Below, one piece after another: positions 22,003 through 63,320 of a stretch of DNA of 64,000 nt (the stretch's first letter is position 1; every line of letters begins with the position of its first letter). The stretch is taken from contig OY969098.1 of NCBI GenBank assembly GCA_963697785.1, positions 1,107,386-1,171,385 of the forward strand, read 5' to 3'. The translations under genes were made by a program, and so were the position numbers. The stretch is from an uncultured Alphaproteobacteria bacterium (GTDB lineage: Bacteria; Pseudomonadota; Alphaproteobacteria; Rhizobiales; Beijerinckiaceae). A model generated the notes under the pieces. That model searched no databases and had not been told where the DNA came from. It worked only from the letters and a program-made list of their open reading frames with translations.

Positions 22003-22069
22003 GTTTGGGCCACTTTGTGGCGCGTAGAGGACATAAATGACCTTATAATGCCACTATCGAGGTTGTCAA

Positions 22070-22327
22070 TTGATCACCGGCGCCCAAGTTCGCTCGGCAC
22101 GAGCTGCTCTCGGCTGGTCCCCTTCGGCTCTCGCTGACAGAGCAGGTGTTAGTGTGCGCACTCTGATGCGGTTCGAGCAGGTCGATGGGATTCCCCCCAG
22201 TCGTAGTTCAAATCTCTTGGCAGTGAAGAATGCCTTAGAAGCCGCAGGTATCGAATTCATTGGGACGCCTGACGATGCGCCAGGCATTCGTGTCAGACAG
22301 AGTGAACCGGGGAAAGTCGTTCCTTAA
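22070..22327 (+). CDS. XRE-family helix-turn-helix transcriptional regulator
   Basis: ITGAQVRSARAALGWSPSALADRAGVSVRTLMRFE is a typical HTH_3. It is divergent from the integrase. Confidence 0.75.
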   Translation: MITGAQVRSARAALGWSPSALADRAGVSVRTLMRFEQVDGIPPSRSSNLLAVKNALEAAGIEFIGTPDDAPGIRVRQSEPGKVVP

Positions 22328-22403
22328 GCTGTTAGCGGGCGTTTCCGCTTGGTTTCCATTGGGCTAAATTGCTGCTTGGACACCAATTCGGAAGGGAGCG
22401 TCT

Positions 22404-23030
22404 ATGTCGCCTCAAGTGCACCAGCTCGTCCCCGCCGAGCGCAAAGACATTGCACCTCCTCCTGGCTTAGAGACCCTTCTGGACCGCCTATCTTGTTGGA
22501 GGGAGAGGACGGTGCTGCTTACACGGCCTTAAATCAGCGGATCCGCGACGCGGTCGTGCCCAAGGACATTATTGAAGACATCTGGGTTCGAGTCATCGAT
22601 ATGGTTTGGGAGACGATGCGCCTTAGGCGCTTCAAAGCCAAGTTTATGAATACCTCCGCCTCATCGCTTGATCGGCGGTTGTGTTAGGGCCTGGACGACG
22701 GACCCGGAACAGCTTCCGGGCTTGATGCCGCCCGAACCAAGCGAGCTGGCCGAGGGTTGAAATCGTCAGGCCCCCGCGTCGATCGCGATAGTGAATGCTC
22801 TTCTCAAGGAGCGGCATATCGATCACGAAGAAATCGCGACGCAGACGTTCGTATCCGACCTCGACACTTTAGAGCAAATCGATCGCATGATCATGCAAGC
22901 CGAAGGCCGCCGAATGTCGGTGTTGCGCGAGATCGAGCGCCATCGGGGAGCTTTGGCACAGCGTCTGCGGGAAACGGCGGGGAAAATTGAAGAGGCCGAG
23001 TTCAGGGAAATTCCCGAAGGCGAGGGGCTA
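22404..23030 (+). pseudogene. integrase-associated conserved hypothetical protein, frame-disrupted
   Basis: ATG at 22404 follows GGAAGGGAG. The pieces DIIEDIWVRVIDMVWETMRLRRFKAKF and ALLKERHIDHEEIATQTFVSDLDTLEQIDRMIMQAEGRRMSVLREIERHR lie in different frames. Function unknown. Confidence 0.3.
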
Positions 23031-23594
23031 ATGAAGGCTTCGCCGCGCACGCTCGCAAATCGGCGTAACGCGCGTTTCAGCACTGGACCGAAAACGCTGG
23101 CCGGAAAAGCGCGTGTCGCGAAAAATGCGTTCCGTCATGGCCTGGCGACCCCGATCTCGTCGGATATTGCGCTTAGTAAATCCGCCCAACGTCTGACGAT
23201 TGCGATCGCCGGGAAGGGGGCAAATGAGATTCGCCTTGAGCGCGCCGAGCGCATCGCCGACGCGCAAGTCGATTTGCAACGCATACGCAGAGGGCGTCGC
23301 GGATTGCTCGCAGACTTTTCCGAGGCCTGTCTGACGCCGCGCAGGGCGGTGCCAAAAATGCCCCGCGTGCGAGACCTGATCCACATGATAAGGCAGCTCA
23401 ATGGCGGCGGAGAATTGGACGCGCGGGCGAGGGATGTTCTGCGCCGCCTCGCCGACATAGCCAGCGCTGCGTCCTTGAGATCGCACCAACAACCAGCAGT
23501 TTTGGCGAAACAATCAGTTCGTTTGGACCGATATGAACGGCGCGCCTTATCGCGCCTGAAGAGGGCGAGCCGGGATTTCGACGCCCTCGAATGA
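23031..23594 (+). CDS. hypothetical protein
   Basis: An internal ATG of ORF 22791-23594 gives MKASPRTLANRRNARFSTGPKTLAGKARVAKNAFRHGL. I know no function for it. Confidence 0.3.
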   Translation: MKASPRTLANRRNARFSTGPKTLAGKARVAKNAFRHGLATPISSDIALSKSAQRLTIAIAGKGANEIRLERAERIADAQVDLQRIRRGRRGLLADFSEACLTPRRAVPKMPRVRDLIHMIRQLNGGGELDARARDVLRRLADIASAASLRSHQQPAVLAKQSVRLDRYERRALSRLKRASRDFDALE

Positions 23595-23982
23595 GCTTCG
23601 CCATAACCCCTTCCTGACGAGGATATTTTTTCGGCAGGGTAGGGCGGCGGGGCCGCCGATGTGCGATAACGGCTCTTGGCGCCCTCGGCGCAGCAAATCG
23701 GCCGGCGTCGCGCAAGAAAGGCTCAAGGTGCAGCGAGGCTGACCAATCAGGAGTGGCCTAGGTTACTACCGGCCTGGACCCTACCGCTTTTCCTGCTGAC
23801 TGTTTTCAGCGCCGGGTGAATGTCGACCACCGATCCAATGGGCGATTGCTATCGGCGCCGGGATAGCCGGCGACATCGTTCCGTCTAAGAGCCGTGTTTC
23901 CAGTGTATGACAGGCTTGCCCGAACATGGGCGAGGAATGAAAGGACACGCCCCTGGTTCAGAAAGTTCAAGTTTCGAGGAAA

Positions 23983-24785
23983 TTGCAAATCTGGTGCGTA
24001 TGTTTGGTGCTGACCATCGCAGTCGTGGTCTTCTGTGTGCGCTATCTAGACCGGCCAATTTGCTTATTTGCGGATCGCCTGTTCGGCCAGTTCACTTGGA
24101 TCGGCGACCTCAAGCGGACACCAAGTCTCTTCGACCCGTTGGCTTTGTTGCTATTTGCGTTCTTCCTCTTGCGTCGCCTGGCGCGCCGGCCCTTCAGCAA
24201 GCTCGATCTTGTTTGTCTGCTTGGTGATGCAAGTCTCTTGCTCACGCGCTACGCCAACGACGAGCTCAAGTATGTGTTCGCACGCACCTATCCCAAATGG
24301 GGATCTCCATCCTTCCTCCGCGACGGGGCATATAGCTTCAACTTTTTCCGTCACGGACATGATTACCTCTCATTCCCCTCGGGGCACACCGCCGCGGTCT
24401 GCGCTTTACTCGCCATTGTGTGGGTGTTTTATCCGCGATTTAGAGCGCTCTATGCATTAACAGCAATCGGAGTTGTTGTCGTGCTGGTCGCGACGAATTA
24501 TCATTTTCTGTCGGATGTCATAGCGGGGGATTCGTAGGTGCGTCAGGCGGCACCTTGTGTGTCTCTGCCGGGCAGTTTTGGGGCTCCGCCATTTCCTCGT
24601 TGCGAACCGAGCCGACCGAAAACGCTCGGGTTGGAAAGCAGGATCACTTGCAAACGCCAACTGGTCGCGAGGGTGGAGGTGACGAGGTCTCGACGTTGGA
24701 TTTCCGACATTCTCCGAAGGAAACGCCGCGGCGAATAAGCTCGGGATCAGTCGACATCACAAAACCGGAGCTCCTAGATGACTAG
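23983..24785 (+). pseudogene. PAP2-family membrane phosphatase, 1-nt deletion near 24530 (paralog of 62144-62995)
   Basis: SFPSGHTAAV and NYHFLSDVIAG are PAP2 motifs. After SDVIAG the frame breaks. The tail (..STLDFRHSPKE..ELLDD) continues in ORF 24555-24785 and aligns with the C-terminus of the intact paralog. Confidence 0.7.
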
Positions 24786-25862
24786 GAGTGCCGCATCCGC
24801 CGTTGAATTGCTATCCCAACTCGCGGAACAGCCAAATGGGATGACGCAAATAGAGACCAATCCCGTAACAATGGCGTATTTCGCAAAAATGTTGCTGTCC
24901 CAGGGAAAGTCTGAGAGCGCGATTGGGCTTGCCCGGCGCGCCATGACGTTGGCTCCGAATGATGGCGAGATCGAAGCGGTTGCCTCGCAGGTGTTGAGCT
25001 ACGAAGTCCCCCCTTGGCATTTTTCGATCGTTCGAGACAAGGCGCGGAACGCCGCTTATGACGAGGCGCTGCGTCGCAACGTTCGGCCAGCCGGCGTGCT
25101 GGAAATTGGTGCCGGATCCGGCATTCTAGCGATGATGGCCGCGCGCGCCGGCGCGCGCGAAGTGATCAGCTGCGAATGTGATCATGCTGTTGCTGCTATT
25201 GCGAGAGATATCGTAGCACTGAATGGATTTTCCGATTGCGTGAAGGTCGTCCCTAAGCACTCACGTGACTTAGAGATTGGAAACGATCTCGACGGGCCAG
25301 CGGACGTGCTCGTATCTGAAATCGTCAGCAGCAATCTTCTGGGCCAGGACGTCTTAGGGTGCATGGAAGATGTAGTTGGGCGGCTTACGCGACCAAATGC
25401 CTGTACTATTCCGTCGCACGGTTCCGTGCGCGTTGCGCTCGCACGTTACGATAGACTTCACGAGAAGCGGCTGGGAATGTCAGATGGCTTTGATCTTTCC
25501 CCCTTGAACAAGCTTGCTGGTCGAATAGACATAAAAGTGGGAGACGAGGCCCTGAAACGGCTAAGCGAGGCGAAAGATCTCTTCGCATTTGATTTCGGTT
25601 CTGGTGGTCCGTTTGAAGAATGCCGAAGTTCCATCAGTGTCACGTCGACGGGCGGGCGCGCCAACGGGATCGCCCAATGGATTAAACTCAGAATGGATGA
25701 GAAGGAATTTTATGAGAGTCGACCGACCGTTGGTGCTAAATCGTGCTGGGGCGTAAATTCTATGCGTTTAAGAAGCCGATTGATCTTGAGCCGGGACGCG
25801 AAGTTATCGTGCACGGCGGCCGCGATCGAACCTCTACGTGGGTTTGGACGGGAGGACGGTAG
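24778..25862 (+). pseudogene. PRMT-like class I methyltransferase, frameshift near 25740
   Basis: VPPWHFSIVRDKARNAAYDEAL..VLEIGAGSGILAMMAARAGAREV..VSEIV is the layout of protein arginine N-methyltransferase-type enzymes. The probable true C-terminus FYAFKKPIDLEPGREVIVHGGRDR is off-frame and stops at 25860-25862. The track ORF tail to 26040 is run-on. Confidence 0.55.
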
Positions 25863-25943
25863 CGGCCGCAGCATGGGCCACGAGAGGCGCCCCCGCGCTA
25901 GCTCGCAGGCAGGTTCTAAGCAGCACATTAAGGAATTACCACA

Positions 25944-26725
25944 ATGCAAATCGATTGCAGCATGCTTGCGATTGATCATCCCGCGCCTTCAGAGCAAATC
26001 CTTCTCGCCAGCAAACATCTTATCATGGATGGATATGTAATCCTCGGTAGCGAATTCCCTCGGAGACCATTTCCCAGCTGAATGAGCAATTCAATAAATC
26101 TTACGCGCAATATTTGCGAGACACGGACTCCGACTACGTCCTAAAAGTAGGGGATCGGAGATATATGACTATTAGGATTTCGGGTCCCTTCCGAGATCCG
26201 ATTGTCTATGCAAACCCGTTCATCTTATCAGTGGTGCGTGAAAGTCTGGGCCTCGATGCCATCTTGGAAAGTTTCGGACCATTCGTTTCACTGTCGGGCT
26301 CCGAAACGCAACATGTGCATCGCGATTTTCCAGTACTCTTTGATGCAGGTATATCCCCACTCTTGCCAGCTCATGCATTAACCGTTGTCATTCCATTGAT
26401 TGAAATGAATGAGCTGCACGGCACGACCGCGGTGTGGCCAGGAAGTCATCGCTGGAAGAGCTTTGATGATAAGGTTGTCTCAGAAACCCCGCGGATTGAG
26501 ATCGGATCGTGTGCAATCTGGGACTTTCGGCTTTTCCACGGCGGCACTCCTAACCATTCTGATATGCATCGGCCGATCCTCTACCTGACATATGCAAGGA
26601 GTTGGTATCGGGATCCTAAGAATTTTTTGAAGGAGGGCCAACGCCGTATCTTGTTGGGCCGAGGCTTCATTCACAGCCTTCCGGAGGATCAGCAAAAACT
26701 ATTCTCTCATATTCGGTGCAATTAG
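25944..26725 (+). pseudogene. phytanoyl-CoA dioxygenase (PhyH) family Fe(II)/2OG oxygenase, frameshift near 26070
   Basis: ATG at 25944 follows AAGGA. HVHRDFP (HxD), TAVWPGSHRW and FRLFHGGTPN are present. The N-terminal 45 aa are in another frame. Confidence 0.7.
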
Positions 26726-26847
26726 GAAGCTTGAATTTTTTGGGAAGCGGCGAGCGGCCGCTGAGGCCTCCCAGTTCGGGCGAGCGCGCACGATCCGAAT
26801 TTGCGAGGTACAACACAGGACCGTTACGGCTCGAAAAGGATCGTCCC

Positions 26848-27434
26848 TTGAGCACAGTCAACCAGATTCCCGTCTATACTCGCGAACTCGATGGACGTTG
26901 TATGCACATCGTGGATGGCATGTTCCAACCAGATCTAATCGCTATGATCCACGAAATCCTCAAACGATTGCCTTTCGCGCTGACGGAATCTAACACCATC
27001 GCAACCAAGCACCAGCGCCACTGGAATTATGAATTTTCTCTCGATTCGCTTGGCTCGCATCCGATATTCCGAAATTGGCACGACCTTATAGTCGCGAAAA
27101 CTGTCGAGCTCTTCCCGGAATCGAGGATCGATCTAGTCGAGTTCACTGTAACAGTCACCTCTACGGAGACTTCCAGACCGCTCATATGGACTTGGTTCCG
27201 GGCATTACCTCGCTGTATTTCGCCAATTCCGAATGGAGAGATAACTGGCACGGTGAGACCATACTCTACAGTGGCTGCCGAGAACCAGTTTATGCTGTGG
27301 CTCCTAAGCCGGGACGGCTACTGATGTTTGCCGGAGATATTCTACACCGAGGTGGCGTGCCTTCGCGAGCATGCTTTGAGGCGAGACTTTCGGTGGCCTT
27401 CAAATTCAGGGCTGTCGCTCATTCGCATACTTGA
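26848..27434 (+). pseudogene. 2OG-Fe(II) oxygenase (prolyl-4-hydroxylase-like), frameshift near 27140
   Basis: TTG at 26848 sits 7 nt after AAGGA. YGDFQTAHMDLVPG (HxD) and RLLMFAGDILHRGGV are in ORF 27075-27434. The N-terminal half is in ORF 26716-27324. Confidence 0.6.
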
Positions 27435-27517
27435 CGCAACCTTTTGATTGCGAAACAATCTGATATGCTTCTGTCGGAAGAAAGGTGCGGTGGCCATTGC
27501 CTAAAGAAGGTGAAAAG

Positions 27518-27766
27518 ATGCCCATCGGTTTGTCGACGGTAGTCAAGCAAGCAAAGGACCAAATTTCATGCAAACTAGACAATGAAGTTGCAATTCTGAA
27601 TATGCAGAGTGCTCTGTACTTTGGCTTGGATGAAGTTGGATCTGTAATTTGGGAGGAACTTGCCGAAGAAAGAACGGTAAGCGATATTTGTAGGAGTGTT
27701 CTCGAGCAATTTGATATTGACGAGCACGAGTGCCAATCTGATGTGATGGGGTTCCTGGGTAATTAA
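27518..27766 (+). CDS. PqqD-family RiPP recognition element (lasso B1-type chaperone)
   Basis: ATG follows GAAGGTGA. ISCKLDNEVAILNMQSALYFGLDEVGSVIWEEL..RTVSDICRSVLEQFDIDEHECQSDVMGFL is typical PqqD. A PqqD-like ending LIEQGLVE continues in the next frame, so a 3' frameshift at about 27762 is possible. Confidence 0.75.
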   Translation: MPIGLSTVVKQAKDQISCKLDNEVAILNMQSALYFGLDEVGSVIWEELAEERTVSDICRSVLEQFDIDEHECQSDVMGFLGN

Positions 27767-27847
27767 TTGAGCAGGGTTTGGTCGAAACCGCGGAACCGAT
27801 TGGATGGATGACGGCTCGCCGTAGCGCTCGCACTAGAGTTCCAGGGA

Positions 27848-29235
27848 ATGAGCGAGGAATACGAGGGATATTCAAACGAGATCGATTACACGTTTGGTTA
27901 TTATCCGTTGCTCTCGCCACCCCACTTGCGACTGGCGTGTCTCAATCAGTCGACCTCGTTTCCTTCCAATCGACCTTTTCGCTATCTTGAGCTCGGACAC
28001 GGAAACGGTGTTTCGCTGAATATTCATGCGGCTGCCTGTCCAGGAGAATATTGGGGGATCGACATCAATCCCTCGCATGTAAACTTTTCCAGAAGCTTGC
28101 AGAGGCAGCGGACACCGGGGTACGCGTACTCAACCTGTCGTTTTCCGATCTGCTGAACTATCCGAGTCTTCCCAATTTTGATTTGGTTGTGATTCATGGA
28201 GTTCGGTCATATATTTCCGCCGCCAATCGGAATGCCATAACCGACCTGTTACGCCAAAAACTCACCGAAGGCGGGCTCTTCTATGTGAGCTATAATTGCC
28301 TGCCGGGCTCTTCCAGCATTGTTCCTCTCCAGTATCTTTTGCGGCTCTATTCGGAGAGAGGAGGCTGCCAAGGGACGGTCGTCGATCGGCTTCAGGCAGG
28401 AATTCGCATTTGCGAACGAATTGTGGCATGCCGGGAGCGAGTTTTTCGCTTCGATTCCGAAAGCGTCTGAACGTTTAGAGCAGATCAAAAGCGAAGATCC
28501 CGCCTACCTTGTTCATGAATATCTGCACGAGTTTTGGCATGTTCCTTCATTCGCTGAAACTGCGCGCAGTCTATCGGACGCCGGACTGCGTTTCCTGGCC
28601 AGTGCATATCTACTCGATCACTATGAAGATTTGAATATCTGTCAGGAGGGGATGGCGCTTCTCGCCGCGTCAGAGGACCCTTTGTTGCGAGAAACAGCGC
28701 GCGATTTTCTGCGCAATAAGCAATTTAGACAGGATATTTTTGTCAAGGGTAAAGCGTCAGGTCCGGGGCCGGAGCGCAAGCGCGACATCGAAGACACTTC
28801 GATAATGTTGGGTATATCGCAAGTCGAAATTCCATCTAAAATAAAAACGAAAGTCGGTTCTATTAGCTTGTTAGGGCCCCCATTTAGCGATGTTGTGAGC
28901 GCGCTCGCCCGGGATGGCTACCGCAGCAAAACGGTCGGTGAAGTTATCGAGCGATGTCGCCACCAACTGAGCGCGGCGGAGGTCACGAGAGCCATTGTGA
29001 TCTTGATCGGCGTGGGCATAGTCTACCCCGTACAAGACGACGCTATTGTCGCCCGCGCTGCCGCCGGCTGCCGACGTCTCAACGAGGAAATTCTTCGCCA
29101 TACTAGGTCCGGGAAGCGACTAACCGCGTTGGCTTCTCCGGTAACAGGATGTGGGATTTAGATGTCTCGGCTGCAGCAACTCTTCTTGATCGCCTATCAA
29201 GCGGGTGCAAGGACTAGCGACGAGTGGGCCGAATA
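27848..29235 (+). pseudogene. SAM methyltransferase with methyltransferase-regulatory (PF10119-like) domain; at least 2 frameshifts plus an in-frame TAG at 29159
   Basis: YTFGYYPLLSPPHLRLACL..YLELGHGNGVSLN, DLVVIHGVRSYIS..GGLFYVSYNCLPG and EDPAYLVHEYLHEFWHVPSFAETA..NKQFRQDIFVKG. The text reads through TAG into MSRLQQLFLIAY. Confidence 0.55.
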
Positions 29236-29395
29236 ATTTGCGTGGGAGAGAAGTGACCCTTTATGAGGCCTCAACCGCGGCTTCCGGTGATTTAGAGCAC
29301 GTATCCTACGGGAGAGCCTCCTATTTCAGGTAAGCCTGCCGGTTTATTCCGCTTTAGGTCTCACCGGCCAAAAAAACTCCTGATCATCCTGGGAC

Positions 29396-29560
29396 TTAAC
29401 CGGTCCTCTGATTAGATTTATATTCGTACGCATCTTGCTTTCCCTTGGTGAAGGTACCAAGAGTGATCTCGCTAAGATTCCCGTGCTGGACTAGCGCGGG
29501 CTTCCTGTAAGGGCGTCTCACGGCCTCGACCGTCTTCGTGTTGGCGCTTTTCTCAACCAT
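29396..29560 (-). CDS. lasso peptide precursor A1 (54 aa, not in the ORF track)
   Basis: MVEKSANTKTVEAVRRPYRKPALVQHGNLSEITL/GTFTKGKQDAYEYKSNQRTG. It has a YxxPxLxxxGxxxxxT leader motif with Thr at -2, Gly1 and Asp9 in the core, and GGGGG 7 nt upstream of the ATG. Confidence 0.75.
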   Translation of the reverse strand: MVEKSANTKTVEAVRRPYRKPALVQHGNLSEITLGTFTKGKQDAYEYKSNQRTG

Positions 29561-29756
29561 GGCCAGCCCCCAACTGTGTTATTATGATTCATAGCACCGG
29601 ATCCCGGATCGGTCAAAATATCATGATGTGCGGGGCTCGAAGTAGTGGGTTTCAGACAACGCTATTCTGCAGAGGGGGCGGTCACTGAAACCAGTCGGTC
29701 TAGGTTTCAATTGCCTTTCAAGGAATTAAGATTTGCGCCCACCAAGTAATTGGCTC

Positions 29757-30686
29757 GTGAAAACGGCCGTCCATTATTCTTATCGCTATCGGGTCTACGG
29801 GCTGACCTTAGCGACCGACCTTAGGCTAAATCTACCGATGCCGATAGGTCCGATGCGACAGTCGAGCTCGGGTTAGGTAGGCAGACCTGTTCCGCAAAGC
29901 GAGAGAGAAGGCTCCCGACTCGAACGATTGGATCCAGCATGCAGTTCTCGAGGTTGCGCTCTCTATATGCGATGGGGGATGGTTCGAAATTCTCGCTTCT
30001 TCTGACGGGCGGCGCGTCCTGTGCAACAACCTGAGCGAGATGCCGCTCGAGTCGTTCGAAGCTTATCTCACGAATTTCGCCGTCAGCGCTGCGCTGATCC
30101 AGCAGGGGGAAGAAACTCTGCACGCGACAGTTGTCGAGATCAGCGGCCGTGCGATCGGTGCTCGGTCCCAGCGGCGCTGGCAAATCGACACTCGCGGCAT
30201 TTTTGATCAACCAAGGCGGCGCCTCGTCACAGACGACATGCTGAGGGTAAGTTCGCGAACGGCGCCGTCTTTGCGCAACCTGGTCCGCGCCGCATTAAGC
30301 TCTTCGGGGGCCTGCAGACCGATATCTCCCTGACCGCGAGTCGGCTATTGGAACCCCCTCTGGTGAAAAGATAATTTTCGAACCGAAGGGTCGGGTAGCA
30401 GTACGGTGCCGCGAACGCTGTCGGCACTTTATCACCTCGAGGCGCCTTCTCCGCCGTCAAATTGGATCAGCCCCTCCTCAAGCAATTGCGCGGAGTTGAA
30501 CTTTTCAACACGATCCTATCCTCAAGCATGGACAACAGATTGCAGTCGCCCGAAGAACTCGAGCGCCAGTTCCGTTTCGCCGAACGCCTTGTGAAAAAAG
30601 TGCCCCTTTTCCGGCTGACCTATTCGAGGAGCTTCAATTTCATCGATCAGGTCGCCAGTCGAATTTACGAATTGGCTCCGCTATGA
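29757..30686 (+). pseudogene. HprK-related kinase (lasso-associated), at least 4 frameshifts
   Basis: GTG start with VKTAVHYSYRYRVYGLTLATDLRLNLP. The P-loop VLGPSGAGKSTLAAFLINQGGA is off-frame at about 30160-30225. LVTDDMLRV and the C-terminus LFRLTYSRSF are also present. The stop overlaps the next ATG (ATGA at 30683-30686). Confidence 0.65.
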
Positions 30687-31121
30687 GGCCGCTCGACACG
30701 TTCCTTCGTTTGAAGCCTGGGGATCAAAAGCTCATTCTTGAGGCAGGATTAGCCTTGGCTTTCTGTTGGGTGCGGATGCGGCTTCAGAGCTTTGAGCAGC
30801 TCCAGGCGTGGGCAACGGCGCGGTAGCGGCGCGCAGGTGGAGCAATTGACCTGGGCCGTCAAGACTGCGTCACGGCGTGTACCGGGGGTGACTTGCCTGT
30901 CCCAGGCGCTTGCACTCCAGCATTTGCTTTCTGGAAATGGCCATTGCTCGGAGCTCAGAATTGGCGTCGACAAATCGGAGGGACGGTTCACCGCCCATGC
31001 TTGGCTCGTTCTCGATGATCGGATCCTGATAGGGGGATCTGCACTCGAGAATTACAAGCTGCTTGCCGCCTGGTCGACGCGTAGCGGCCTCGTACGCAGG
31101 GATCGGAAGGACCAAACCTAA
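30683..31121 (+). pseudogene. lasso peptide B2 protease (transglutaminase-like cysteine protease), one frameshift near 30825
   Basis: MRPLDTFLRLKPGDQKLILEAGLALAFCWVRMRL, then CLSQALALQHLL (catalytic Cys) and FTAHAWLVLDD (His). Confidence 0.75.
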
Positions 31122-31122
31122 C

Positions 31123-32870
31123 ATGAGCTTTCTGGTTCTGTTCAATTCTGATCGTGCTCCGATCGAGATAGAGGCCAGCGGCAAAATAGGATCAAAAAAC
31201 AAAACACTGCGGTCTTGGGGAAGTTCCGGCAGACCGCTTTCATGTGGGCCGATTCGGCTCCGGTGTGTCGCGCGGGGCACCGGGACGCCGATTGATCTCG
31301 ATGGACGAATTTGGATTATCGGGCGCGTCCGGTTGGACGGTCGGGACGGACTTTGCGCAGATCTTCGCGCCTCGCCAACGAACTGCGACAAGCTTCTTTG
31401 CCTGCGTTCATATGCAGAATGGGGGGAGCAAAGTCTCAAGCATTTACAGGGAGACTTTTGTTTCGCCATTTGGGACGAGGATCGGCAGCAGTTATTCTGC
31501 GCTCGCGATCAACTCGGCGTAAAGCCGCTCTTTTATGCCCATGCCGGGAACAGATGGCTCGTAAGCGATGCACTTGAAAGCATACGCTCGAATTCGACGT
31601 AGGAGAGCGAGCTCGACGAACATTGGGTGGCGGACTTTCTCACCACGGGCTTTTGTCTCGACTTTCACAGAAGCGTTTACAAAGAAATCAGGCGCGTGCC
31701 TCCCGCGCATGTGTTGGTCGCTTCGTCGGACGGAATTTAGTGCGCCGGTATTGGACATTGAACATCGAGGCGCCGATTTTCTATCGCAATGAGAGACAAT
31801 ACCTCGATCACTTTCATGAACTCATGGCCCTCTCGATCCAAGATCGGCTCCCCCAGGGCGGGTAGGCGTCGCGATGAGCGGCGGACTGGATTCGTCGACT
31901 TTGGCGGCGAAGGCTGTGGCGGTTGCTGGAGACGCCTCGCGCGTGATCGCAGATACCTGCTATTTCGAACATCTGATCCCCGACGAGGAAAAACATTTCA
32001 GCTCCCTTGTCGCGAGCCGGCTCGGCATCCGGCTCACGCTGAGGCCCGTCGACGATACCTGTTACGATCGCCTTTGGGAAACGCGCGACATCCAACCCCG
32101 GAGCCGACGACATCGATTACCAGGGCGGCCTCCGAGCGCATCTTTGGCGCCGAAATGGCGAAGCAGGCACAGGTCTGGTTCTATGGCGAGGGACCGGACA
32201 ACGCGCTCACGTTCGAATGGAGAGCCTATCTCCGCTGGTTATGGACAGCGTGATTGGCCTCGATTTGGCGGCGCTATGGTCCAGTATCTTCGCAGCAAGC
32301 AGGCGCGCGAATGGCGCACCACCTTCAAAACATACGCCTTCCGCCGGCGCAAAGAGGAGATAGATGCTCTTCGCCGCCCCCCGATGGATGGACGACGCGT
32401 TCGTCAAAAAGGTGGATCTCGCTGCGAGAATGCGCGACGCGAGCCATACTGGCTAAGTGCGCACCCGTGGCGCCCGCGTGCGATCGCCTCATTCACAAGC
32501 GCGATTTGGCCTAGCTTCCTTGATGGATTCGACGTAGCTGTTTCAGGAGTCCCGATCGAGTGGCGGCATCCTTATCTCGATCTGAGGGTTTTGACCTTCC
32601 TGCTCTCAGTCCCGCCGATCCCGTGGGCCCGACGCAAATTTCTGATCCGCAAAGCGATGAAGGGCGTGCTTCCCGAAGAGGTCCTTTCAAGAGGCAAAGC
32701 ACCATTGGCGGATGACCCGGTTGTAAAGATGCTGCAGAAGTATCCGCTTCGAGTATTTTCTTGTGTCAGCGGTTCGGGAATTTGTAAACGAAGCCAAAGT
32801 GCCAAGCAGACCAGGTAACGCGCCGAAATTCATGAGCTTATCAAGATTCGCGCATTGGACTTCTGGTTGA
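31123..32870 (+). pseudogene. lasso cyclase (asparagine synthetase B-like, C protein), at least 4 frameshifts
   Basis: HLQGDFCFAIWDEDRQQLFCARDQLGVKPLFY, the PP-loop VAMSGGLDSSTLAA, WRHPYLDLRVLTFLLSVPP and RRKFLIRKAM are spread over three frames. Confidence 0.8.
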
Positions 32871-32984
32871 GAAACCGGTGACATTGGGCAAAAATTTCAT
32901 TATGATCTTCCTGCCGAAACTGCCCTCCACGAATTTGCTCTCGGATCTACGAACCGCAGGGGCGCGTAAGGTGCGAATGAAGCC

Positions 32985-34128
32985 ATGCCTTCGCGCGAAT
33001 TTATGTTCCTGTGTCGTGTCATCAGTGGCGATCCCGCTGCTAAGCGGATCCAGAACTCTGAGGCAAGGCATCGATTGGACGACGCTGGGGCGTTTGGCCG
33101 AATGCCACGGAGTAAGGCCGCAACTGCTTCATGGTCTCAGACGAATAGGCTTGTAATCCACCTCCTGAAACAAAACAGCTCTTGACGAATTCCAGCAACT
33201 CCATCTGGTTCGATGCCTCCATCTCGGGGCGAACTCCTAGGCATCGCAGACTTGTTCGGAGAGAAACATATTCGTTTCGCGACATTCAAAGGGGTGGCGC
33301 TGGCGATCTCTCTCTATGGAGATATCTCTCGACGGGAGTTCAACGACATCGACCTCATCGTTCATGAAGCTGATTTGGAGACCGCCGAAAGCTGTCTTCG
33401 GTCGCGCGGCTATCGCGCCAAGTCTGGAGACAGGTCCTATCGCAACGCTTTCCTGGCCTATCAGAACCAATACATTTTTCAAACGAGCGAGAAATGATTG
33501 ATCTCCATTGGGATTTCAGTAAAGGGAGTTCCGTTTCCTCTTCGGGCTCGCGAGATCTGGGGCCAATTGGAATCAGTATCATCGCCGGTCGAGACATTCC
33601 CACGCTCGGGCGTAACGAACTCGCGCTTTTTCTCGCCGGGCACGGAACAAAGCAAGGGTGGAAATCGCTAGGCTGGGTCTGCGATTTCGCAGATTTCATC
33701 CGAGCCTATCCCGAAATCGATTGGATAAGTCTTTGGCGGCGCTCCGCTCAAAAGCATTGCGGCCATCCGATTTTGCTCGGCTGCACATTGGCGTCGAGAC
33801 TTGCTCGATGCGCCGGTGGACGAAGAATTGCTCGCCTGTGCTGATCGGGAACCGGCCGTCAGGCTCTGGCGGATGCCGCGATGAAACGAATGATGGATCC
33901 TCCTCGGCGGCGGCGGCGGCCTCGACCCCCGAAGACTTTCTGGGAGGTCTGGATCTCTGCGAGACCTGGACCCAAAAGGCCAGGGTCCTATGGGGCTTGG
34001 CTTCGACGCGGACAACCGGCGATTACGAGGCCATGCCGCTGCCACCCCCGCTGTGGCGTCTGTATCATCTGACCAGGCCATTCCGTCTCGGCATAAAGAT
34101 CCTATCGAGCGCCCGTGCAAGATCCTGA
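32985..34128 (+). pseudogene. PF14907-type (NTP_transf_5) nucleotidyltransferase, at least 4 frameshifts
   Basis: IDWTTLGRLAECHGVRPQLL, FATFKGVALAISLYGDISRREFNDIDLIVHEADLETAESCLRSRGY, IDLHWDF and YHLTRPFRL are in alternating frames. Confidence 0.6.
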
Positions 34129-34152
34129 CGTCTGCTCGTTGAGCGCGTGGCC

Positions 34153-35953
34153 TCATGATGAGCATTGCGAAATCGATGCCGCCCTGCGTTGGTCGATGTT
34201 CGTCGCTACCTTCTTCAGCTTGCCCTCCTCGATGCGGAAGGCTCTGGTCAGCCGATCGAACTGTTTCGGGGCGGTGCGTCGCAAGCAGCATTGTCACGTG
34301 CCCTTTGAGCGCTTCTATTCCCTCCAGAACTGTCTGCTCATTTTGTTCGTCGAGCGAGTTCGTCGGTTCGTCCAGGATTAGCAACGCCGGATCACGAAGA
34401 AGAGCGCGCGCCAATGCGAGCCGTTGCCGTTCCCCGCCAGAAAAACGCGCCCCACGATCCCCGACGACTGTGTCCATGTGCCTAGGCAGAGCATTCACGA
34501 ACCTGGCCGCGCCAGACAAGACCAGTGCTTTCATGAGTTCGCTCTCGTCGGCGTCGGGCTTAGCGACGAGCAAATTCGCACGAATGGTGTCGTGAAACAG
34601 AAAAGGATCTTGCGAGACATAGGCGATCGAGGTTCGCCAAGCTCGCGCCAATTCTTCTGTCAACTCATGCTCATCGATCCATATTCTTCCGCTGTCAGGT
34701 CGTAGCAGACCAGCGAGCATGTCGAGCAGCGTGCTCTTGCCGGCGCCTGATGGCCCGGAGACGACCGTGAGCGTTCCGGCCGGCAGGTCGAAAGTGATGT
34801 CCCTCAAAGCCAGCGGGTCGTTTGCGCTATGTCGGAAGCTGACGTGCTCAACGCGAATGCGTCGATCAACCTTTACGGATTTGCGAGACTGACTGACTGG
34901 CATCTCCCGAGCGGCTGTGCAAGCCTTCCAAAGATCGAGAATTGTGTAAGCTGCCGGGGCGGTGTGCAAAAGCTGCTGCGCGGCTTGCTGCAGGGACTGG
35001 GCCAAGGGCAAGAGGCGGTAAAAAATCAGAGCCAGGACCAGGACTTCCGCGACAGGCATGTGCAGCAAAGCGGCGCTTATCCATAGGAACGCGGCGACTG
35101 CGATGGCGCCGGCGATCTCCTGAAACGCTCGGGCGTTGGCCTGACTCGAGACGTAGGAGAGCAGACTGCCTTTGACCTCGTTAATCGCCTCGGCGAAGGC
35201 CGTCACATATAAATCCTCTGAGACACAGCTCTTGGTGATCTTGAGGCCGGCGAGGAACTCCGAGATGCGATGATAGAGTTCTTCGTAAGCGGCTGACAGC
35301 GATTCTCCCAATCGCAAACTCTCAGTGAGACGTCCCCGGGCCAGCCACGCAAGCAAAAAACCAATCGTCAACGCCCCGAGCGCAAGCGCCGGAGCGATTA
35401 AGCATGCGGTGATCACGTAGGCGCCAATCATCATTGCTTGCGCTGGCATCTGCAAAGCGAAGTGAACTGCCGAATTGAGGCGATCGGTTTCTACGGTCAG
35501 GGCGGACAGAAATTCTGAACGGCGCACGTGGCGCAGAAAGGACCAATTCGCATGCGCAATCGCCGAATAGAGATCAATGCGGACGTTGCGAATGAGATCC
35601 AGCCGAAGACTCTCGAGATGGAGGCTGGCCTGGCGATTTATGAGGGAACGAGTCGTCATGAGGGCGACGAATATCGCCAGGACGACAAGTAGATTTGGCC
35701 GGACGCCGAGGCTCTGCAAAAAGTAGGAGAACCATGCCTTCGCGGATCGTCCGGCACCTGCCGTTGGATCGAGCATTTGAAGAAGTGGAACGAGGAGAAA
35801 AAGGGTGAGGGCTTCGGTTAGGCTTGCAGAAAGTACCAAAGTGCCCGCAATGAGCACCCGCCGTGGAGTTGTTCGTTGCAGAAGGAGCTGCCAGAAGCGC
35901 CTGATCTGGCGAACAGCTTCCGGTGCGGAAGCTGGACGTCGTTCGCCACTCAT
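34153..35953 (-). pseudogene. ABC exporter, fused permease/ATPase (lasso D-type), 3' frameshift near 34245
   Basis: Six-TM N-terminal half. Walker A GPSGAGKSTLLDML, signature FSGGERQRLALARAL and Walker B LLILDEPT are present. After THRPETVRSAD the plausible end RIEEGKL.. is off-frame with a stop at 34153. The track ORF extension to 33668 is run-on. Confidence 0.8.
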
Positions 35954-36547
35954 CTTGCAGCCTCCAGAACTCTGCCGCGGCTCTCATCGGCTGTCGTTTG
36001 AGGGTCCGCTGCCGCTTGGCCGAGGGTCGCCCGGAGGCCCAGCTCGAGATCGATCGCGCGCCTCCGAAACAAGGGCTTAGCCCAGCCGAAGATGCTTTGG
36101 GAGCGCCGACGGATCGGCGGGACATGCCGCCGATGCGGAGAAAGCCAAATGACCGATCCATGCAGCACGGCAACAACTCACAACACACGACCATCCGGGG
36201 ATCGCTCGCCATGATAGAAGCCAAAGCCTGAACTTATCCACCGAATTCTAAAGCCAAAGTGCTCGTAGGAACTGCACTGTCCGCGGCTCCCATCTTCGTA
36301 AAAAAAATCTGTGCGAACGCCCAAAGGGCTGATCCCCCTCATTTTCTCTTTCGGGATTCGGCTTTCCTGAACTTTTACCGTTGCGCAGGGGCAACGCAAC
36401 GCCGAAAAGAGAGGAGCTACGTGCTTAAAGATGGCAGAACCGCCTGTGCTCTGCGATCATGAGGGTCTGCTTCGGAGTTCTGGAGCCAAATGGCGGTCTA
36501 ATCTAATTATACCATGGTTTTGTGTGGTCGCCTTTCTGGGGGGAAGG

Positions 36548-36733
36548 ATGTCTGCGAAAAACACCAATGATCGTGCGCCTCATAACAACAGAACGATGTG
36601 CGTGAGACGCTCTTACAAAAAGCCCACATTGATCCAGCATGGGAGTTTGCGCGAGATTACGCGCGCCACTGGCTATGGTGGGAAGTCCGATCATTGCGAC
36701 CCCCACCATTATCCAAATCGCACCCATTTTTAG
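36548..36733 (+). CDS. lasso peptide precursor A2 (61 aa, inside track ORF 36431-36733)
   Basis: MSAKNTNDRAPHNNRTMCVRRSYKKPTLIQHGSLREITR/ATGYGGKSDHCDPHHYPNRTHF. The leader is paralogous to A1 (VRRxYxKPxLxQHGxLxEIT). The core shares T2, G6, K7 and D9 with A1. GGGGGGAAGG lies immediately upstream of the ATG. Confidence 0.7.
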   Translation: MSAKNTNDRAPHNNRTMCVRRSYKKPTLIQHGSLREITRATGYGGKSDHCDPHHYPNRTHF

Positions 36734-36983
36734 GGGTCGGTCGTGATCGGCCTTAGCAGAACAAGCCAAGTTCGCTGACAACACAAAATCCTTGCTTGCT
36801 CGGTCTTGCAGCGAGAGTGCGGCAGATCTCGCAAGGACCGAATCAGCGACTCCGCGATGCATTTGGTCTCAGAAATAAAGTTGAAAAGCTCATCGACATA
36901 CTTTGGAGATGCAAGACTTCGCGCCGCTCAACCGCGTAATACGACCAGGCGAAAATCCGACTGGAAAGTACCAGCGCGCGATG

Positions 36984-37274
36984 TCAGCTGGTCACGCTGC
37001 GACGCTCGCTTGCTGAGTTTGGCGGAAGGCGAGAAATTATTCTTCGGCGTACATGCACAGTCATCAGCCCTAGGAGGTAACCCACTTGCAAACCAACGGC
37101 TACGACTAGGAGCGCGAGCGCGATGCAAGCAACGCTCTTAGAATTCGCAATTCCCACGCCGAGGATGAATGCTCCAGTGACGGCGAACGCGGGGAAAATC
37201 ACAAGCGATTTAAAATGCCATAAGCCGAAGCCGAAGGCGACGCCGCCGAGCCCTGCCAAGATCACGAGTTGCAT
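36984..37274 (-). CDS. small three-TM membrane protein
   Basis: ATG is preceded by AGGAGAAG. MQLVILAGLGGVAFGFGLWHFKSLVIFPAFAVTGAFILGVGIANSKSVACIALALLVVAVGLQVGYLLGL. Confidence 0.45.
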   Translation of the reverse strand: MQLVILAGLGGVAFGFGLWHFKSLVIFPAFAVTGAFILGVGIANSKSVACIALALLVVAVGLQVGYLLGLMTVHVRRRIISRLPPNSASERRSVTS

Positions 37275-37451
37275 AACTTCTCCTACGGAAACGCCCCCAC
37301 GCCCGCGGATCGCAACTTAGCGTGACCGTCTCACATAATCCGGCCCGAAGCAAGGTGACACCCGCGATGCTACGCGGCGCAAGAATTGAGAAATTGAGTT
37401 CCAGACCTATATCGACGTCACTTTCCGCCTTTAACGTGAGTGTCTGCACTT

Positions 37452-37994
37452 TCAAATCCTAGCGCGCGTAGATACGGATCGGTGCTGTTCCAAAGTTCGT
37501 TGGGATTTCGTATGGCGCGAAGAGACCTGGAATATCCGAATATCCGAATATCCGAAGATCAGCAGAACGGCTGGGAGATTTGGCCGCACGCCGATGCTTC
37601 GCAATAGGCGGGGCAGCCATGGAATTACACCGTGTCCCGCACTCGGATCAAGCATCTGAAGAAGCGGAACCAGCAGGAAAAGCGCTAGAGCTTCACTCAA
37701 GCTTGCAAGAAGCGCCAGGATGCCAGCAACGAGAATCCGGCCCGCACCCGCTCGCTCGACGAATATGCGCCAAAAACGCACGATCTGGCCGACGGCCTCC
37801 GATATCGAACCTTCACTCCCTTCGTCTTTCACTTTGATAGGCCCCAGAGGCGGTTTCTGTCGGCTCTTTTTGGAGAGTTCACGTCTGCGAGCTAGCAGGA
37901 GACGCGGCTCGAAATCAATGATGCAAAGCTCGGTGAAGTCCTTCGACGGCGCTTCATGTTTGCCCCAGCTGACCTGAACTTGAGGATAAGCCAT
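37452..37994 (-). pseudogene. 5' remnant of a second ABC exporter gene (paralog of 34153-35953)
   Basis: EAVGQIVRFWRIF..RILVAGILALLASLSEALALFLLVPLLQMLDPSAG..SIGVRPNL aligns with EAVRQIRRFWQLL..RVLIAGTLVLSASLTEALTLFLLVPLLQMLDPTAG..SLGVRPNL. Homology stops at the tandem repeat at 37530. Confidence 0.6.
37530..37560. repeat. 8-bp tandem repeat GAATATCC x3 plus a partial fourth copy
   Basis: Read directly: gaatatcc gaatatcc gaatatcc gaagatc. It sits exactly where homology of the ABC remnant ends. Confidence 0.9.
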
Positions 37995-40429: not shown

Positions 40430-40944
40430 AGGTCCGTCGGCGGTGATCGTCGCTTCCCAGAGCACCAAGGCAGCTCGAAAAGAGGCTCGTCGATCGATCC
40501 GCAGGCTTCGATGCGGGCAAGAAGGTCACGGGCCGCAAGCGTCACATCCTCGTCGATACGCTCGGTCTCCTTCTCGGCGTAAGCGTTCTGCCTGCCGACA
40601 TTCAGGACCGCGATAACGGGCGCGATCTGTTACGGCGTGTGCGGCGGCGTTTTCCTTTTATTGAACGCATCTTCGCCGACGCGGGATATCAGGGAGCAAA
40701 AATGGCGACTACCATTATCGCCACCGGAAGCTGGAAGATTGAGATCGTCAAGCGTTCCGACCATCGCCGCTTCGTCGTCGTGCCAAAGCGATGGGTCGTG
40801 GAGCGAAGCTTCGCATGGTTCAGCCGTATCCATCGTCTCGGTCGCGACTTCGAACGTTATGCGGCAACCGTCGCCGCCTTCGTCCACCTCGCCATGATCC
40901 GCCTAATGCTCAAACGCCAGACCAGGCCAAGCCCTTGCTCGTGA
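40430..40944 (+). mobile_element. IS5-family transposase, C-terminal half, frame-disrupted remnant
   Basis: FDAGKKVTGRKRHILVDTLGLLLGVSVLPADIQDRD is off-frame. RRFPFIERIFADAGYQG..WVVERSFAWFSRIHRLGRDFERYAATVAAFVHLAMIRLMLKR is in ORF 40639-40944. The N-terminal half is absent. Confidence 0.75.
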
Positions 40945-44378: not shown

Positions 44379-44645
44379 TTCATGCGGATAGGAGGGCAGG
44401 GGATTTGAGGGCGCTCGCGGACGATGGAGCGTTTCGCAGCCGTCTCGGCCAGTGACGGGCGGGGCTTTTTGCAGAACAAAGCCATTGCCGGCCATTCTTG
44501 CGGATCGCCAGATTTCCTCCGCTGCCAAGGCACTTGGGTATTGACTCTTGTTCTGCCAAACTCGAGTCGTTCTCAGTTTGCAGAGGGTTGACCCACCATC
44601 GCCCTTGTCTTCCCACTGCACTATAATGCACCAACGAGGTGCGTT

Positions 44646-44816
44646 ATGGTGCCCATCCAAGACCTTGTCCGCAAGAATAATCGTGATATCGCTTTATTTC
44701 GTGGGTACATAACTAAGCTCACTGGCAAACCAGGAAACCGAAAACTCAAAGGCGATCTGAAGCGGCGCATTGCCGCTGCGGAAGAGTCAAACGCCACCTT
44801 GCGAGCGGCGCGCTAA
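44646..44816 (+). CDS. small basic hypothetical protein (56 aa)
   Basis: ATG sits 5 nt after GAGGTG. MVPIQDLVRKNNRDIALFRGYITKLTGKPGNRKLKGDLKRRIAAAEESNATLRAAR. It is below the ORF-track size cut-off. Confidence 0.25.
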   Translation: MVPIQDLVRKNNRDIALFRGYITKLTGKPGNRKLKGDLKRRIAAAEESNATLRAAR

Positions 44817-62995: not shown

Positions 62996-63040
62996 GACAG
63001 CCGCGTCTGCCATCGGCGGCTCGCCGAGCGGACGGAAAAG

Positions 63041-63320
63041 ATGGCTGCACTGGAGACAAACCCAGTGACAATGGCGCATTTTGCAAAGAGGTTGTTATCC
63101 AGGAAAAACGGAGAGAGCGATCGATTTTGCTCGGCGTGCCACACGTTCGCTTCGAATGACGGCGAAGTCGGAGCGATTGCTTCACAGGTGTTGAGCTACG
63201 AGGTCCCAAGTTGGCATTTTTCGATCGTTCGAGATGGCGTGCGCAATGCGCTTATGACTAGGCACTGCGTCGCAACGTTCGGCCAGGAACGCGGGTACTG
63301 GAGATTGGCGCTGGATCTCA
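63041..63320 (+). pseudogene. 5' remnant of a PRMT-like methyltransferase (paralog of 24778), in-frame TAG at 63259
   Basis: ETNPVTMAHFAKRLLS..NDGEVGAIASQVLSYEVPSWHFSIVRDGVRNA parallels the first copy. GAG is replaced by TAG at 63259-63261. Similarity ends just after VLEIGAGS. Confidence 0.6.

What the first reader, a model, noticed from the sequence alone, without database searches (positions are those of the whole stretch)
36548..36733. Second precursor (A2) with a His/Cys-rich tail hidden inside a longer track ORF
MSAKNTNDRAPHNNRTMCVRRSYKKPTLIQHGSLREITRATGYGGKSDHCDPHHYPNRTHF has a leader clearly paralogous to A1. With Thr at -2 the core would start at Ala (ATGYGGKSD ring, Asp9). Ala and Ser at position 1 are known in caulonodin-type peptides. 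The alternative Gly3-Asp9 gives a 7-residue ring. The tail HCDPHHYPNRTHF holds four His and one Cys in 13 residues, a composition suggestive of metal binding, which would be an uncommon property for a lasso peptide. Both cores share an N-(x)-R-T motif 1-2 residues from the C-terminus.
Basis: partly seen in the sequence, partly recalled or inferred. Interest (0 to 1): 0.65.

Follow-up and report, generated by a model that had tools for sequence, protein, structure and literature searches.

The report
Second lasso-peptide precursor gene, His/Cys-rich
A small uncalled gene at 36548-36733 encodes a second precursor for a lasso peptide (a knotted bacterial natural product); its histidine/cysteine-rich tail is kept by selection in related soil bacteria, which makes it a sound but still untested candidate for a metal-binding lasso peptide.

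Summary
The ORF at 36548-36733 (+) gives the quoted 61 aa. It carries the canonical lasso leader (Tyr-17, Pro-14, Leu-12, Thr-2) and is a clear paralogue of A1 (29396-29578, minus strand).

It is a real gene.
- Intact orthologues occur in at least three allele groups from soil metagenomes.
- dN/dS in its frame is about 0.11; the antisense ORF frame gives 2.6.
- The Shine-Dalgarno-like run and the ATG at 36548 are conserved.
- Neither the 100-aa upstream extension nor the internal ATG at 36596 is conserved.

The tail motif D9-H-C-D-P-H-H is invariant. Core start at Ala1 with Asp9 fits the family: among 77 related precursors, position 1 is Ala, Thr or Ser in 61, and Asp sits at position 9 in about 65. 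The near-C-terminal Thr is also family-wide (60/77).

In same-species relatives (Methylovirgula-like), A2 sits beside an intact B1/B2/C/kinase/nucleotidyltransferase/exporter set.

In the window these genes look frameshifted. However, the window has 36 unique single-base deletions against only 28 unique substitutions there, so consensus error is the likely cause.

Maturation, phosphorylation and metal binding are untested. This is a new member of a known kind, of moderate interest.

The parts
36548..36733 (+). A2 precursor gene (61 codons plus stop)
   Evidence: Orthologues in L003, L075-L077, L079, L080 and L074. dN/dS 0.11.
36538..36547 (+). Shine-Dalgarno-like GGGGGGAAGG directly upstream of the ATG
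   Evidence: Conserved in all five aligned alleles, while sequence further upstream diverges and carries indels.
36548..36664 (+). Leader, 39 aa, with Y23/P26/L28 at -17/-14/-12 and T38 at -2
   Evidence: Motif scan. Spacing rule taken from PMC10368454.
36665..36730 (+). Predicted core ATGYGGKSDHCDPHHYPNRTHF: ring Ala1-Asp9 and a 13-residue tail
   Evidence: Family statistics. DHCDPHH is invariant in three allele groups. The ring and threading are inferred.
29396..29578 (-). A1 precursor, core GTFTKGKQDAYEYKSNQRTG
   Evidence: The core is identical in L081.
27518..27766 (+). B1 (PqqD-like leader-recognition protein); the C-terminal ~18 aa are out of frame
   Evidence: 77.5% identical to the L002 PqqD protein by tblastn. 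Frames shown.
29754..30680 (+). HPr-kinase-like tailoring kinase, reading frame broken in the window
   Evidence: Intact at 315-339 aa in L001, L002 and L076.
30683..31121 (+). B2 leader peptidase (Transglut_core3), one frame change
   Evidence: Pfam E = 3.6e-21. tblastn.
31120..32878 (+). C lasso cyclase (Asn-synthase-like), several frame changes
   Evidence: Pfam. The stitched protein is 79% identical to the intact 590-aa P0001. Gaps listed.
32880..34128 (+). NTP_transf_5 nucleotidyltransferase-like gene, frames broken
34159..35953 (-). D1 ABC exporter, divergent from A2; one frame change about 25 aa before the C-terminus
   Evidence: Pfam ABC_tran and ABC_membrane. tblastn.
36984..37274 (-). 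Conserved 96-aa hydrophobic ORF, convergent with A2
   Evidence: 86% identical in L003 and L074, and at least 90% identical in seven further assemblies; always near A2.
37553..37994 (-). Remnant of a second exporter D2 (N-terminal ~93 codons). About 1.7 kb is deleted relative to L076.

Best explanation
A2 is a functional, selectively maintained second precursor gene of a lasso-peptide cluster. The cluster is of the HPr-kinase/nucleotidyltransferase type and sits in a Methylovirgula-like soil alphaproteobacterium.

Shown here:
- The 61-codon ORF has the canonical lasso leader.
- It is paralogous to A1.
- It is conserved under purifying selection in its own frame.
- It lies next to the exporter gene and within 10 kb of the B1, B2 and C genes.

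Inferred pathway:
1. Translation starts at 36548.
2. B1 binds the YKKPTL motif.
3. B2 cuts after Thr(-2)-Arg(-1).
4. C joins the amine of Ala1 to the side chain of Asp9 around the 13-residue tail HCDPHHYPNRTHF. The predicted product has a monoisotopic mass of 2478.07 Da.
5. The kinase may phosphorylate the conserved Thr20.
6. The ABC exporter D secretes the product.

The invariant D-H-C-D-P-H-H stretch just after the ring is the selected functional surface. What it binds is unknown.
For: - Leader. Exact YxxPxLx3Gx5Tx match; two hits in the window against 0.03 expected. The -17/-14/-12/-2 spacing is canonical (PMC10368454).
- Neighbourhood. Pfam finds B2, C, NTP_transf_5 and the ABC exporter. 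Synteny with L001-L004.
- Orthologues. ...ITR|ATGYGGKSDHCDPHHYPNRTR in L003, L075, L076, L077, L079 and L080. ATGYHGKSDHCDPHHRPNLTG in L074.
- Soil-metagenome contigs. They carry only N7D, S22A, one synonymous change, H60R and an in-frame 3-bp deletion inside the ORF. The flanks hold many 1-2 bp indels.
- Selection. dN/dS 0.11, with 13 of 19 differences at third codon positions. The antisense ORF frame gives 2.6.
- Start codon. The SD-like run and ATG are conserved, the long ORF is out of frame in relatives, and M17 is absent in L074.
- Intact machinery. L076 and L077 carry A2 with intact PqqD, kinase, B2, a 590-aa C, NTP and a 595-aa D2. These assemblies are 99.1-99.6% identical to the window's right flank.
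- Family norm. Position 1 is A/T/S in 61 of 77 cores, Asp is at position 9 in about 65 of 77, and 10 of the related loci scanned carry two or more precursors.
Against: - There is no transcript or peptide evidence; no RNA run holds the stretch.
- In the window, HPrK, B1, B2, C and NTP all show frame breaks.
- In the two assemblies closest in island sequence (L081, L082), the A2 copies carry unique indels.
- A2 is rare. No orthologue was found in JGI metagenome contigs, and none is present in the protein database.
- Gly3 is very conserved in the family (61/77), so the ring could start there instead of at Ala1.
Confidence: 0.8

Rival explanations
1. A2 is an intact but orphaned relic in this genome. 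On this view the frame breaks in B1, kinase, B2, C and NTP are real, the cluster is dead, and A2 is no longer matured here.
For: About 40 single-base gaps relative to four intact relatives across 29.7-34.2 kb. Upstream island genes also show about one shift each. D2 is truly deleted.
Against: In a five-way alignment the window has 36 unique deletions but only 28 unique substitutions. The relatives have 84-417 unique substitutions and 0-2 deletions. There are 0-1 nonsense substitutions. The nonsynonymous:synonymous ratio on the window branch (21:29) matches that of the intact L001. The 8-kb right flank is clean, with 33 substitutions and 1 indel. Other assemblies of the same project differ from each other by many indels. 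This spectrum looks like deletion-biased consensus error, not decay.
Confidence: 0.12
2. A2 is a lasso precursor but the ring is Gly3-Asp9 (7 residues). The two residues Ala-Thr would be removed or left as part of the leader.
For: Gly at position 3 in 61 of 77 family cores, against Gly at position 1 in only 2.
Against: Tyr/Pro/Leu/Thr fall exactly at -17/-14/-12/-2 only if the core starts at Ala (PMC10368454). The window's A1 has Gly1 and Phe3, so Gly3 is not obligatory.
Confidence: 0.1
3. The coding gene is a different ORF on this DNA: either the 100-aa ORF at 36431-36733, or the antisense ORF at 36503-36862 (called as 239 aa in relatives).
For: Gene callers on related assemblies called the antisense ORF and never A2.
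Against: Antisense frame dN/dS is 2.6 against 0.11 for A2. Indels 10-12 nt upstream of the ATG put the 100-aa extension out of frame in L003, L076 and L074. No Pfam hit.
Confidence: 0.02

Closest known systems
Caulonodins IV-VII (Caulobacter sp. K31), from my own knowledge of Zimmermann et al. 2014
   Same: The core starts with Ala or Ser rather than Gly. The macrolactam has nine residues. Several precursors share one B/C enzyme set.
   Different: Those rings close on Glu9; here it is Asp9. Those clusters have no kinase or nucleotidyltransferase genes and no His/Cys-rich tail. A2 also sits apart from the operon, divergent from the exporter.
Paeninodin and pseudomycoidin clusters (HPr-kinase-like PadeK/PsmK and nucleotidyltransferase-like PsmN; PMC9266682, PMC6993621)
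   Same: Split B1/B2, an HPr-kinase homologue and an NTP_transf_5-type gene sit in the cluster. The kinase acts on the linear precursor near its C-terminus.
   Different: Those are from Firmicutes, with an obligatory C-terminal Ser. Here a Thr lies 1-2 residues before the C-terminus, and the modification is untested.
BsfA/BsfK of Bradymonas sediminis (PMC10368454)
   Same: A Gram-negative lasso cluster with kinase, N and D genes and a YxxPxL leader motif at -17 to -12.
   Different: Bsf has Ile at -2 and is phosphorylated on Ser3. A2 has the canonical Thr at -2 and Gly at position 3.
Metal-binding RiPPs such as methanobactins (working analogy only, from my own knowledge)
   Same: A small exported ribosomal peptide with clustered metal-ligand residues (His, Cys, Asp), from a methylotroph-related lineage.
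   Different: Methanobactin ligands are made by heterocycle/thioamide chemistry. Nothing here shows metal binding. No natural metal-binding lasso peptide turned up in the literature searched.

Membership tests
Lasso peptide precursor (A gene) | Leader with YxxPxL at -17..-12 and Thr at -2 | tested here: met
   Y23, P26, L28 and T38 with the core starting at A40. Spacing rule from PMC10368454.
Lasso peptide precursor (A gene) | Core with Asp/Glu at position 7-9 and a tail long enough to thread | tested here: met
   Asp9 and a 13-residue tail with bulky H14, H15, Y16, R19, H21 and F22 (sequence). Asp is at position 9 in about 65 of 77 relatives.
Lasso peptide precursor (A gene) | Neighbourhood encodes B1 (PqqD-like), B2 (transglutaminase-like) and C (Asn-synthase-like) | tested here: met
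   Pfam and tblastn in the window. These genes are intact next to A2 in L076 and L077. The window copies carry frame breaks that are probably technical.
Lasso peptide precursor (A gene) | Coding constraint on the small ORF | tested here: met
   dN/dS 0.11. The only indel inside intact orthologues is in frame.
Lasso peptide precursor (A gene) | Product is a threaded macrolactam (MS/NMR) | not testable with these tools
   Needs expression and MS. Predicted [M] is 2478.07 Da.
Phosphorylated (kinase-tailored) lasso peptides | HPr-kinase homologue in the cluster | tested here: met
   PF07475 genes in L001, L002, L004 and L076. The homologous stretch in the window is 29754-30680. Present in 68 of 80 related loci.
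Phosphorylated (kinase-tailored) lasso peptides | Conserved hydroxyl acceptor (C-terminal Ser in paeninodin, Ser3 in Bsf) | tested here: inconclusive
   There is no C-terminal Ser and no Ser3. A Thr lies 1-2 residues from the end (60/77 cores), but there was no kinase-free control set to test the link.
Metal-binding peptide (metallophore) | Conserved cluster of ligand residues | tested here: met
   D9, H10, C11, D12, H14 and H15 are invariant in three allele groups. A2 has the highest His count of 77 cores, tied with L053.
Metal-binding peptide (metallophore) | Measured metal affinity or metal-linked genes or regulation | not testable with these tools
   No metal transporter or regulator was identified next to A2.

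The most novel reading that the evidence does not exclude
The mature A2 product is a natural metal-binding lasso peptide. The invariant Asp-His-Cys-Asp-Pro-His-His loop directly above the ring would chelate Cu, Zn or Ni. The peptide would be exported by its own paralogous ABC transporter, possibly together with the adjacent small membrane protein, in a methylotroph-related soil bacterium.
Probability: 0.12. Interest if true: 0.75.

Novelty: new member of a known kind. Interest (0 to 1): 0.42.

Why it matters
Multi-precursor lasso clusters and kinase-tailored lasso peptides are already known, so the gene class is ordinary. Three things are useful.

1. A2 is invisible to gene callers. It is absent from a 5.8-billion-protein database, and an antisense ORF is called in its place. 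Yet it is clearly under selection. This is a concrete case of missed RiPP precursors.
2. It belongs to a large, apparently uncharacterised alphaproteobacterial/acidobacterial family. In that family the core almost never starts with Gly, and a near-C-terminal Thr is conserved.
3. Its invariant DHCDPHH loop with a single free Cys is an unusual, testable candidate for a metal-binding or thiol-reactive lasso peptide.

Tried and rejected
- Protein-database search with A2: no candidate at all, not even the window's own ORF.
- Plasmid collection, near mode, for 29000-37500: no match.
- JGI metagenome scan with A2: 151 pattern hits, none confirmed. The JGI orthologue L074 was reached only later, through the neighbouring membrane protein.
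- Rfam on 35900-37600: nothing. No tRNA in the window.
- Promoter/terminator scan: no + strand site upstream of A2 and no terminator.
- RNA runs: none served. No sequencing run holds 29400-33900, so the frame breaks could not be checked against reads.
- I first read the broken cyclase as a decayed pseudogene cluster. I rejected this after the branch-specific counts.
- The attempt to link the C-terminal Thr to kinase presence failed for lack of kinase-free clusters.
- The alternative start at 36596 and the 100-aa ORF were rejected.
- The antisense ORF was rejected.
- Literature searches found no natural metal-binding lasso peptide and no study of this family.

Full report
**1. Observation**

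The ORF at 36548-36733 on the + strand translates exactly to the 61 residues quoted. It lies inside a longer ATG ORF at 36431-36733 of 100 aa. A six-frame scan for the lasso leader pattern finds two full matches in the 64-kb window. One is this ORF. The other is A1 on the minus strand at 29578..29396: MVEKSANTKTVEAVRRPYRKPALVQHGNLSEITL|GTFTKGKQDAYEYKSNQRTG. Shuffled sequence gives 0.03 matches on average. The tail HCDPHHYPNRTHF has four His and one Cys, and both cores end N-(Q)-R-T plus one or two residues.

**2. Surroundings**

Pfam identifies these genes between A1 and A2:
- a transglutaminase-like B2 peptidase (30683-31121)
- an Asn-synthase-like cyclase C (31120-32878)
- an NTP_transf_5 gene
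- an ABC exporter D on the minus strand

An HPr-kinase-like gene (29754-30680) and a PqqD-like B1 (27518-27766) were placed by tblastn with the proteins of relatives. A2 is divergent from D, about 600 bp beyond its start.

The stitched cyclase finds 548 homologues. The best are intact 590-aa proteins at 61-79% identity. Their contigs (L001-L004) share a long synteny with window 21.4-37.5 kb: integrase, HTH, PAP2, PrmA-like methyltransferase, PhyH, PqqD, a 514-aa methyltransferase, A1, kinase, B2, C, NTP_transf_5, D.

**3. Is A2 conserved?**

Yes. L003 carries ...RRAYKKPTLIQHGSLREITR|ATGYGGKSDHCDPHHYPNRTR at the same place.

A conserved 96-aa hydrophobic ORF lies just downstream of A2 (36984-37274, minus strand). 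I used it as a handle and recovered more contigs. L075, L076, L077, L079 and L080 carry the same NRTR allele. L074, a JGI sample, carries a much more divergent copy: MSTKNTNNCVPLSNSTKRAYKKPTLIQHGTLRDITR|ATGYHGKSDHCDPHHRPNLTG.

Short-read soil-metagenome contigs show the following inside the ORF: N7D, S22A, one synonymous change, and H60R with an in-frame 3-bp deletion. The flanks carry many 1-2 bp indels.

Window against L074, over the leader motif plus core:
- 12 synonymous and 7 nonsynonymous differences
- dN/dS 0.11
- 13 of 19 differences at third codon positions
- the frame of the antisense ORF gives 2.6

The purine-rich run GGGGGGAAGG and the ATG at 36548 are conserved in all alleles. The N-terminus MSxKNT is shared with other leaders of the family. 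Indels just upstream put the 100-aa extension out of frame in relatives. The internal ATG at 36596 is deleted in L074. So the gene starts at 36548. D9-H-C-D-P-H-H is invariant across the three allele groups.

**4. Core boundary and family context**

With the core starting at Ala, Tyr/Pro/Leu/Thr fall at -17/-14/-12/-2. This is the canonical spacing described in PMC10368454.

I scanned one genome per species with a cyclase alignment. This gave 69 loci, mostly Reyranella, Methylocystis and Acidobacteriota MAGs. A motif scan of all loci held at that point gave 77 precursors, including the window's two:

| Feature | Count among 77 |
|---|---|
| Position 1 is Ala / Thr / Ser / Gly | 30 / 18 / 13 / 2 |
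| Gly at position 3 | 61 |
| First acidic residue at position 9 | about 65 |
| Thr within the last three residues | 60 |
| No His in the core | 43 |

Ten loci have two or more precursors. The Gly3-Asp9 ring cannot be excluded. A2 has the highest His count (4), tied with ANGSGSRRDNSGHYSHRTHSGDTH in L053. The His/Cys richness is therefore a property of A2 and a few near relatives, not of second precursors in general.

**5. Is the machinery alive?**

In the window, B1, kinase, B2, C and NTP_transf_5 are all broken by frame changes. I first took this for decay. The counts argue otherwise:
- After frame correction there are 0-1 nonsense substitutions in 1366 codons.
- Window-branch changes are few, with a nonsynonymous:synonymous ratio (21:29) like that of the intact L001 branch.
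- In a five-way alignment of 29.7-34.2 kb, the window has 28 unique substitutions but 36 unique deletions. L081, L082, L001 and L002 have 84-417 unique substitutions and 0-2 deletions each.
- The window's right flank is clean: 33 substitutions and one indel over 8 kb against L076.
- Assemblies of the same project differ from one another by many indels.

This spectrum fits deletion-biased consensus error in a poorly covered, strain-variable patch. No public run holds that stretch, so I could not prove it.

Independently, L076 and L077 carry A2 next to intact genes: PqqD, kinase (315 aa), B2, C (590 aa), NTP_transf_5 (397 aa) and an exporter (595 aa). L075, L076, L078 and L080 are 99.1-99.6% identical to the window's right flank, so they are the same species. 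Proteins at least 90% identical to the window's are named Methylovirgula sp. in NCBI MAGs.

**6. Local architecture**

Relatives show an ancestral order: NTP_transf_5, D1(-), A2(+), small membrane ORF(-), D2(-), sugar transferase.
- The window keeps D1 and has lost about 1.7 kb of D2. The remnant is 37553-37994.
- The L076 type keeps D2 and has only a D1 fragment.
- The A2-membrane-ORF segment (36137-37539) is 93-95% identical between these alleles, while the rest of the cluster is about 75% identical.
- L081 and L082 are the assemblies closest in island sequence (88.6% and 91.3%). Their A2 copies carry unique indels. Their tail-coding sequence is nevertheless identical to the window's, against 8-10% divergence around it. 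I read those indels as errors too, with less certainty.

**7. Mechanism**

Shown: gene, leader, paralogy, selection and neighbourhood.

Inferred, step by step:
1. B1 binds the YKKPTL motif.
2. B2 cleaves after Thr-Arg.
3. C forms the Ala1-Asp9 isopeptide around the tail. Predicted mass is 2478.07 Da.
4. The HPr-kinase homologue possibly phosphorylates Thr20. This is by analogy with the C-terminal Ser of paeninodin and pseudomycoidin (PMC9266682) and Ser3 of BsfA (PMC10368454).
5. D exports the product.

The invariant DHCDPHH loop with one unpaired Cys is the obvious functional surface. Metal binding is plausible on composition alone, but nothing here tests it. I found no precedent for a natural metal-binding lasso peptide in the literature searched.

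**8. Verdict**

A2 is a genuine, previously uncalled second lasso precursor. It is a new member of a known kind. The metal-binding idea remains a hypothesis, which I put at about 0.12. Interest is moderate (0.42).

Noticed in passing
window 29700-34200: 36 single-base deletions unique to the window against only 28 unique substitutions. They break the kinase, B2, C and NTP_transf_5 genes. Four relatives have 0-2 unique deletions each. This looks like local consensus error in the assembly rather than pseudogenes.
   Followed up: yes
window 36984-37274 (-): A 96-aa hydrophobic ORF (MQLVILAGLGGVAFGFGLW...) with no Pfam or NCBIfam hit. It is conserved at 86-100% identity and always lies near A2. 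It could be an immunity or export partner.
   Followed up: partly
window 33668-35953 and 37452-37994; L076 7741-9528 and 12134-12664: Two paralogous ABC exporters flank A2 ancestrally. The window keeps D1 and has a 1.7-kb deletion in D2. The L076-type allele keeps D2 and only a fragment of D1. The loss is reciprocal.
   Followed up: partly
window 36137-37539 vs L003/L076: The A2-membrane-ORF segment is 93-95% identical between island alleles whose biosynthetic genes are only about 75% identical. Breakpoints at 36137, 36835 and 37539-37553 recur in soil-metagenome contigs. This suggests recombination or cassette-like exchange.
   Followed up: partly
L005-L073 (related loci): A large family of kinase-associated lasso precursors in Reyranella, Methylocystis and Acidobacteriota MAGs. 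The consensus core is (A/T/S)-V-G-x-x-G-x-x-D-G-G...R-T-x, and Gly at position 1 is almost absent (2/77). I found no experimental study of it.
   Followed up: partly
window 21046-29380: A conserved set of genes lies upstream of A1 and is syntenic in L002 and L003: integrase, HTH, PAP2 phosphatase (24007-24782), PrmA-like methyltransferase (24778-25853), PhyH-like dioxygenase (26063-26728) and a 514-aa methyltransferase (27848-29380). Together they look like an integrase-bounded island with extra tailoring enzymes.
   Followed up: no
window 23983-25118 vs 62186-63317: A 1.15-kb direct repeat at 72% identity. It is a second copy of the PAP2/PrmA-like gene pair near the end of the window.
   Followed up: no
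L076 10638-11357 (+); window 36503-36862 (-): Gene callers on related assemblies annotate a long ORF antisense to A2 (239 aa) and never A2 itself. Its frame has dN/dS 2.6.
   Followed up: yes
window 36835/36836; L003 14744-15279; window 44536-44802: The L003/L076 alleles carry a ~0.5-kb insertion between A2 and the membrane ORF. Part of it (~270 bp) is 84% identical to window 44536-44802, so it is a dispersed repeat of unknown nature.
   Followed up: no
window 40625-40944; L075 1828-4870: A transposase fragment lies at 40639-40944. Same-species relatives L075 and L080 have an extra ~3.1-kb insertion at this point, which in L075 encodes an IS1595 transposase, an N6/N4 DNA methyltransferase and an HNH protein.
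   Followed up: no
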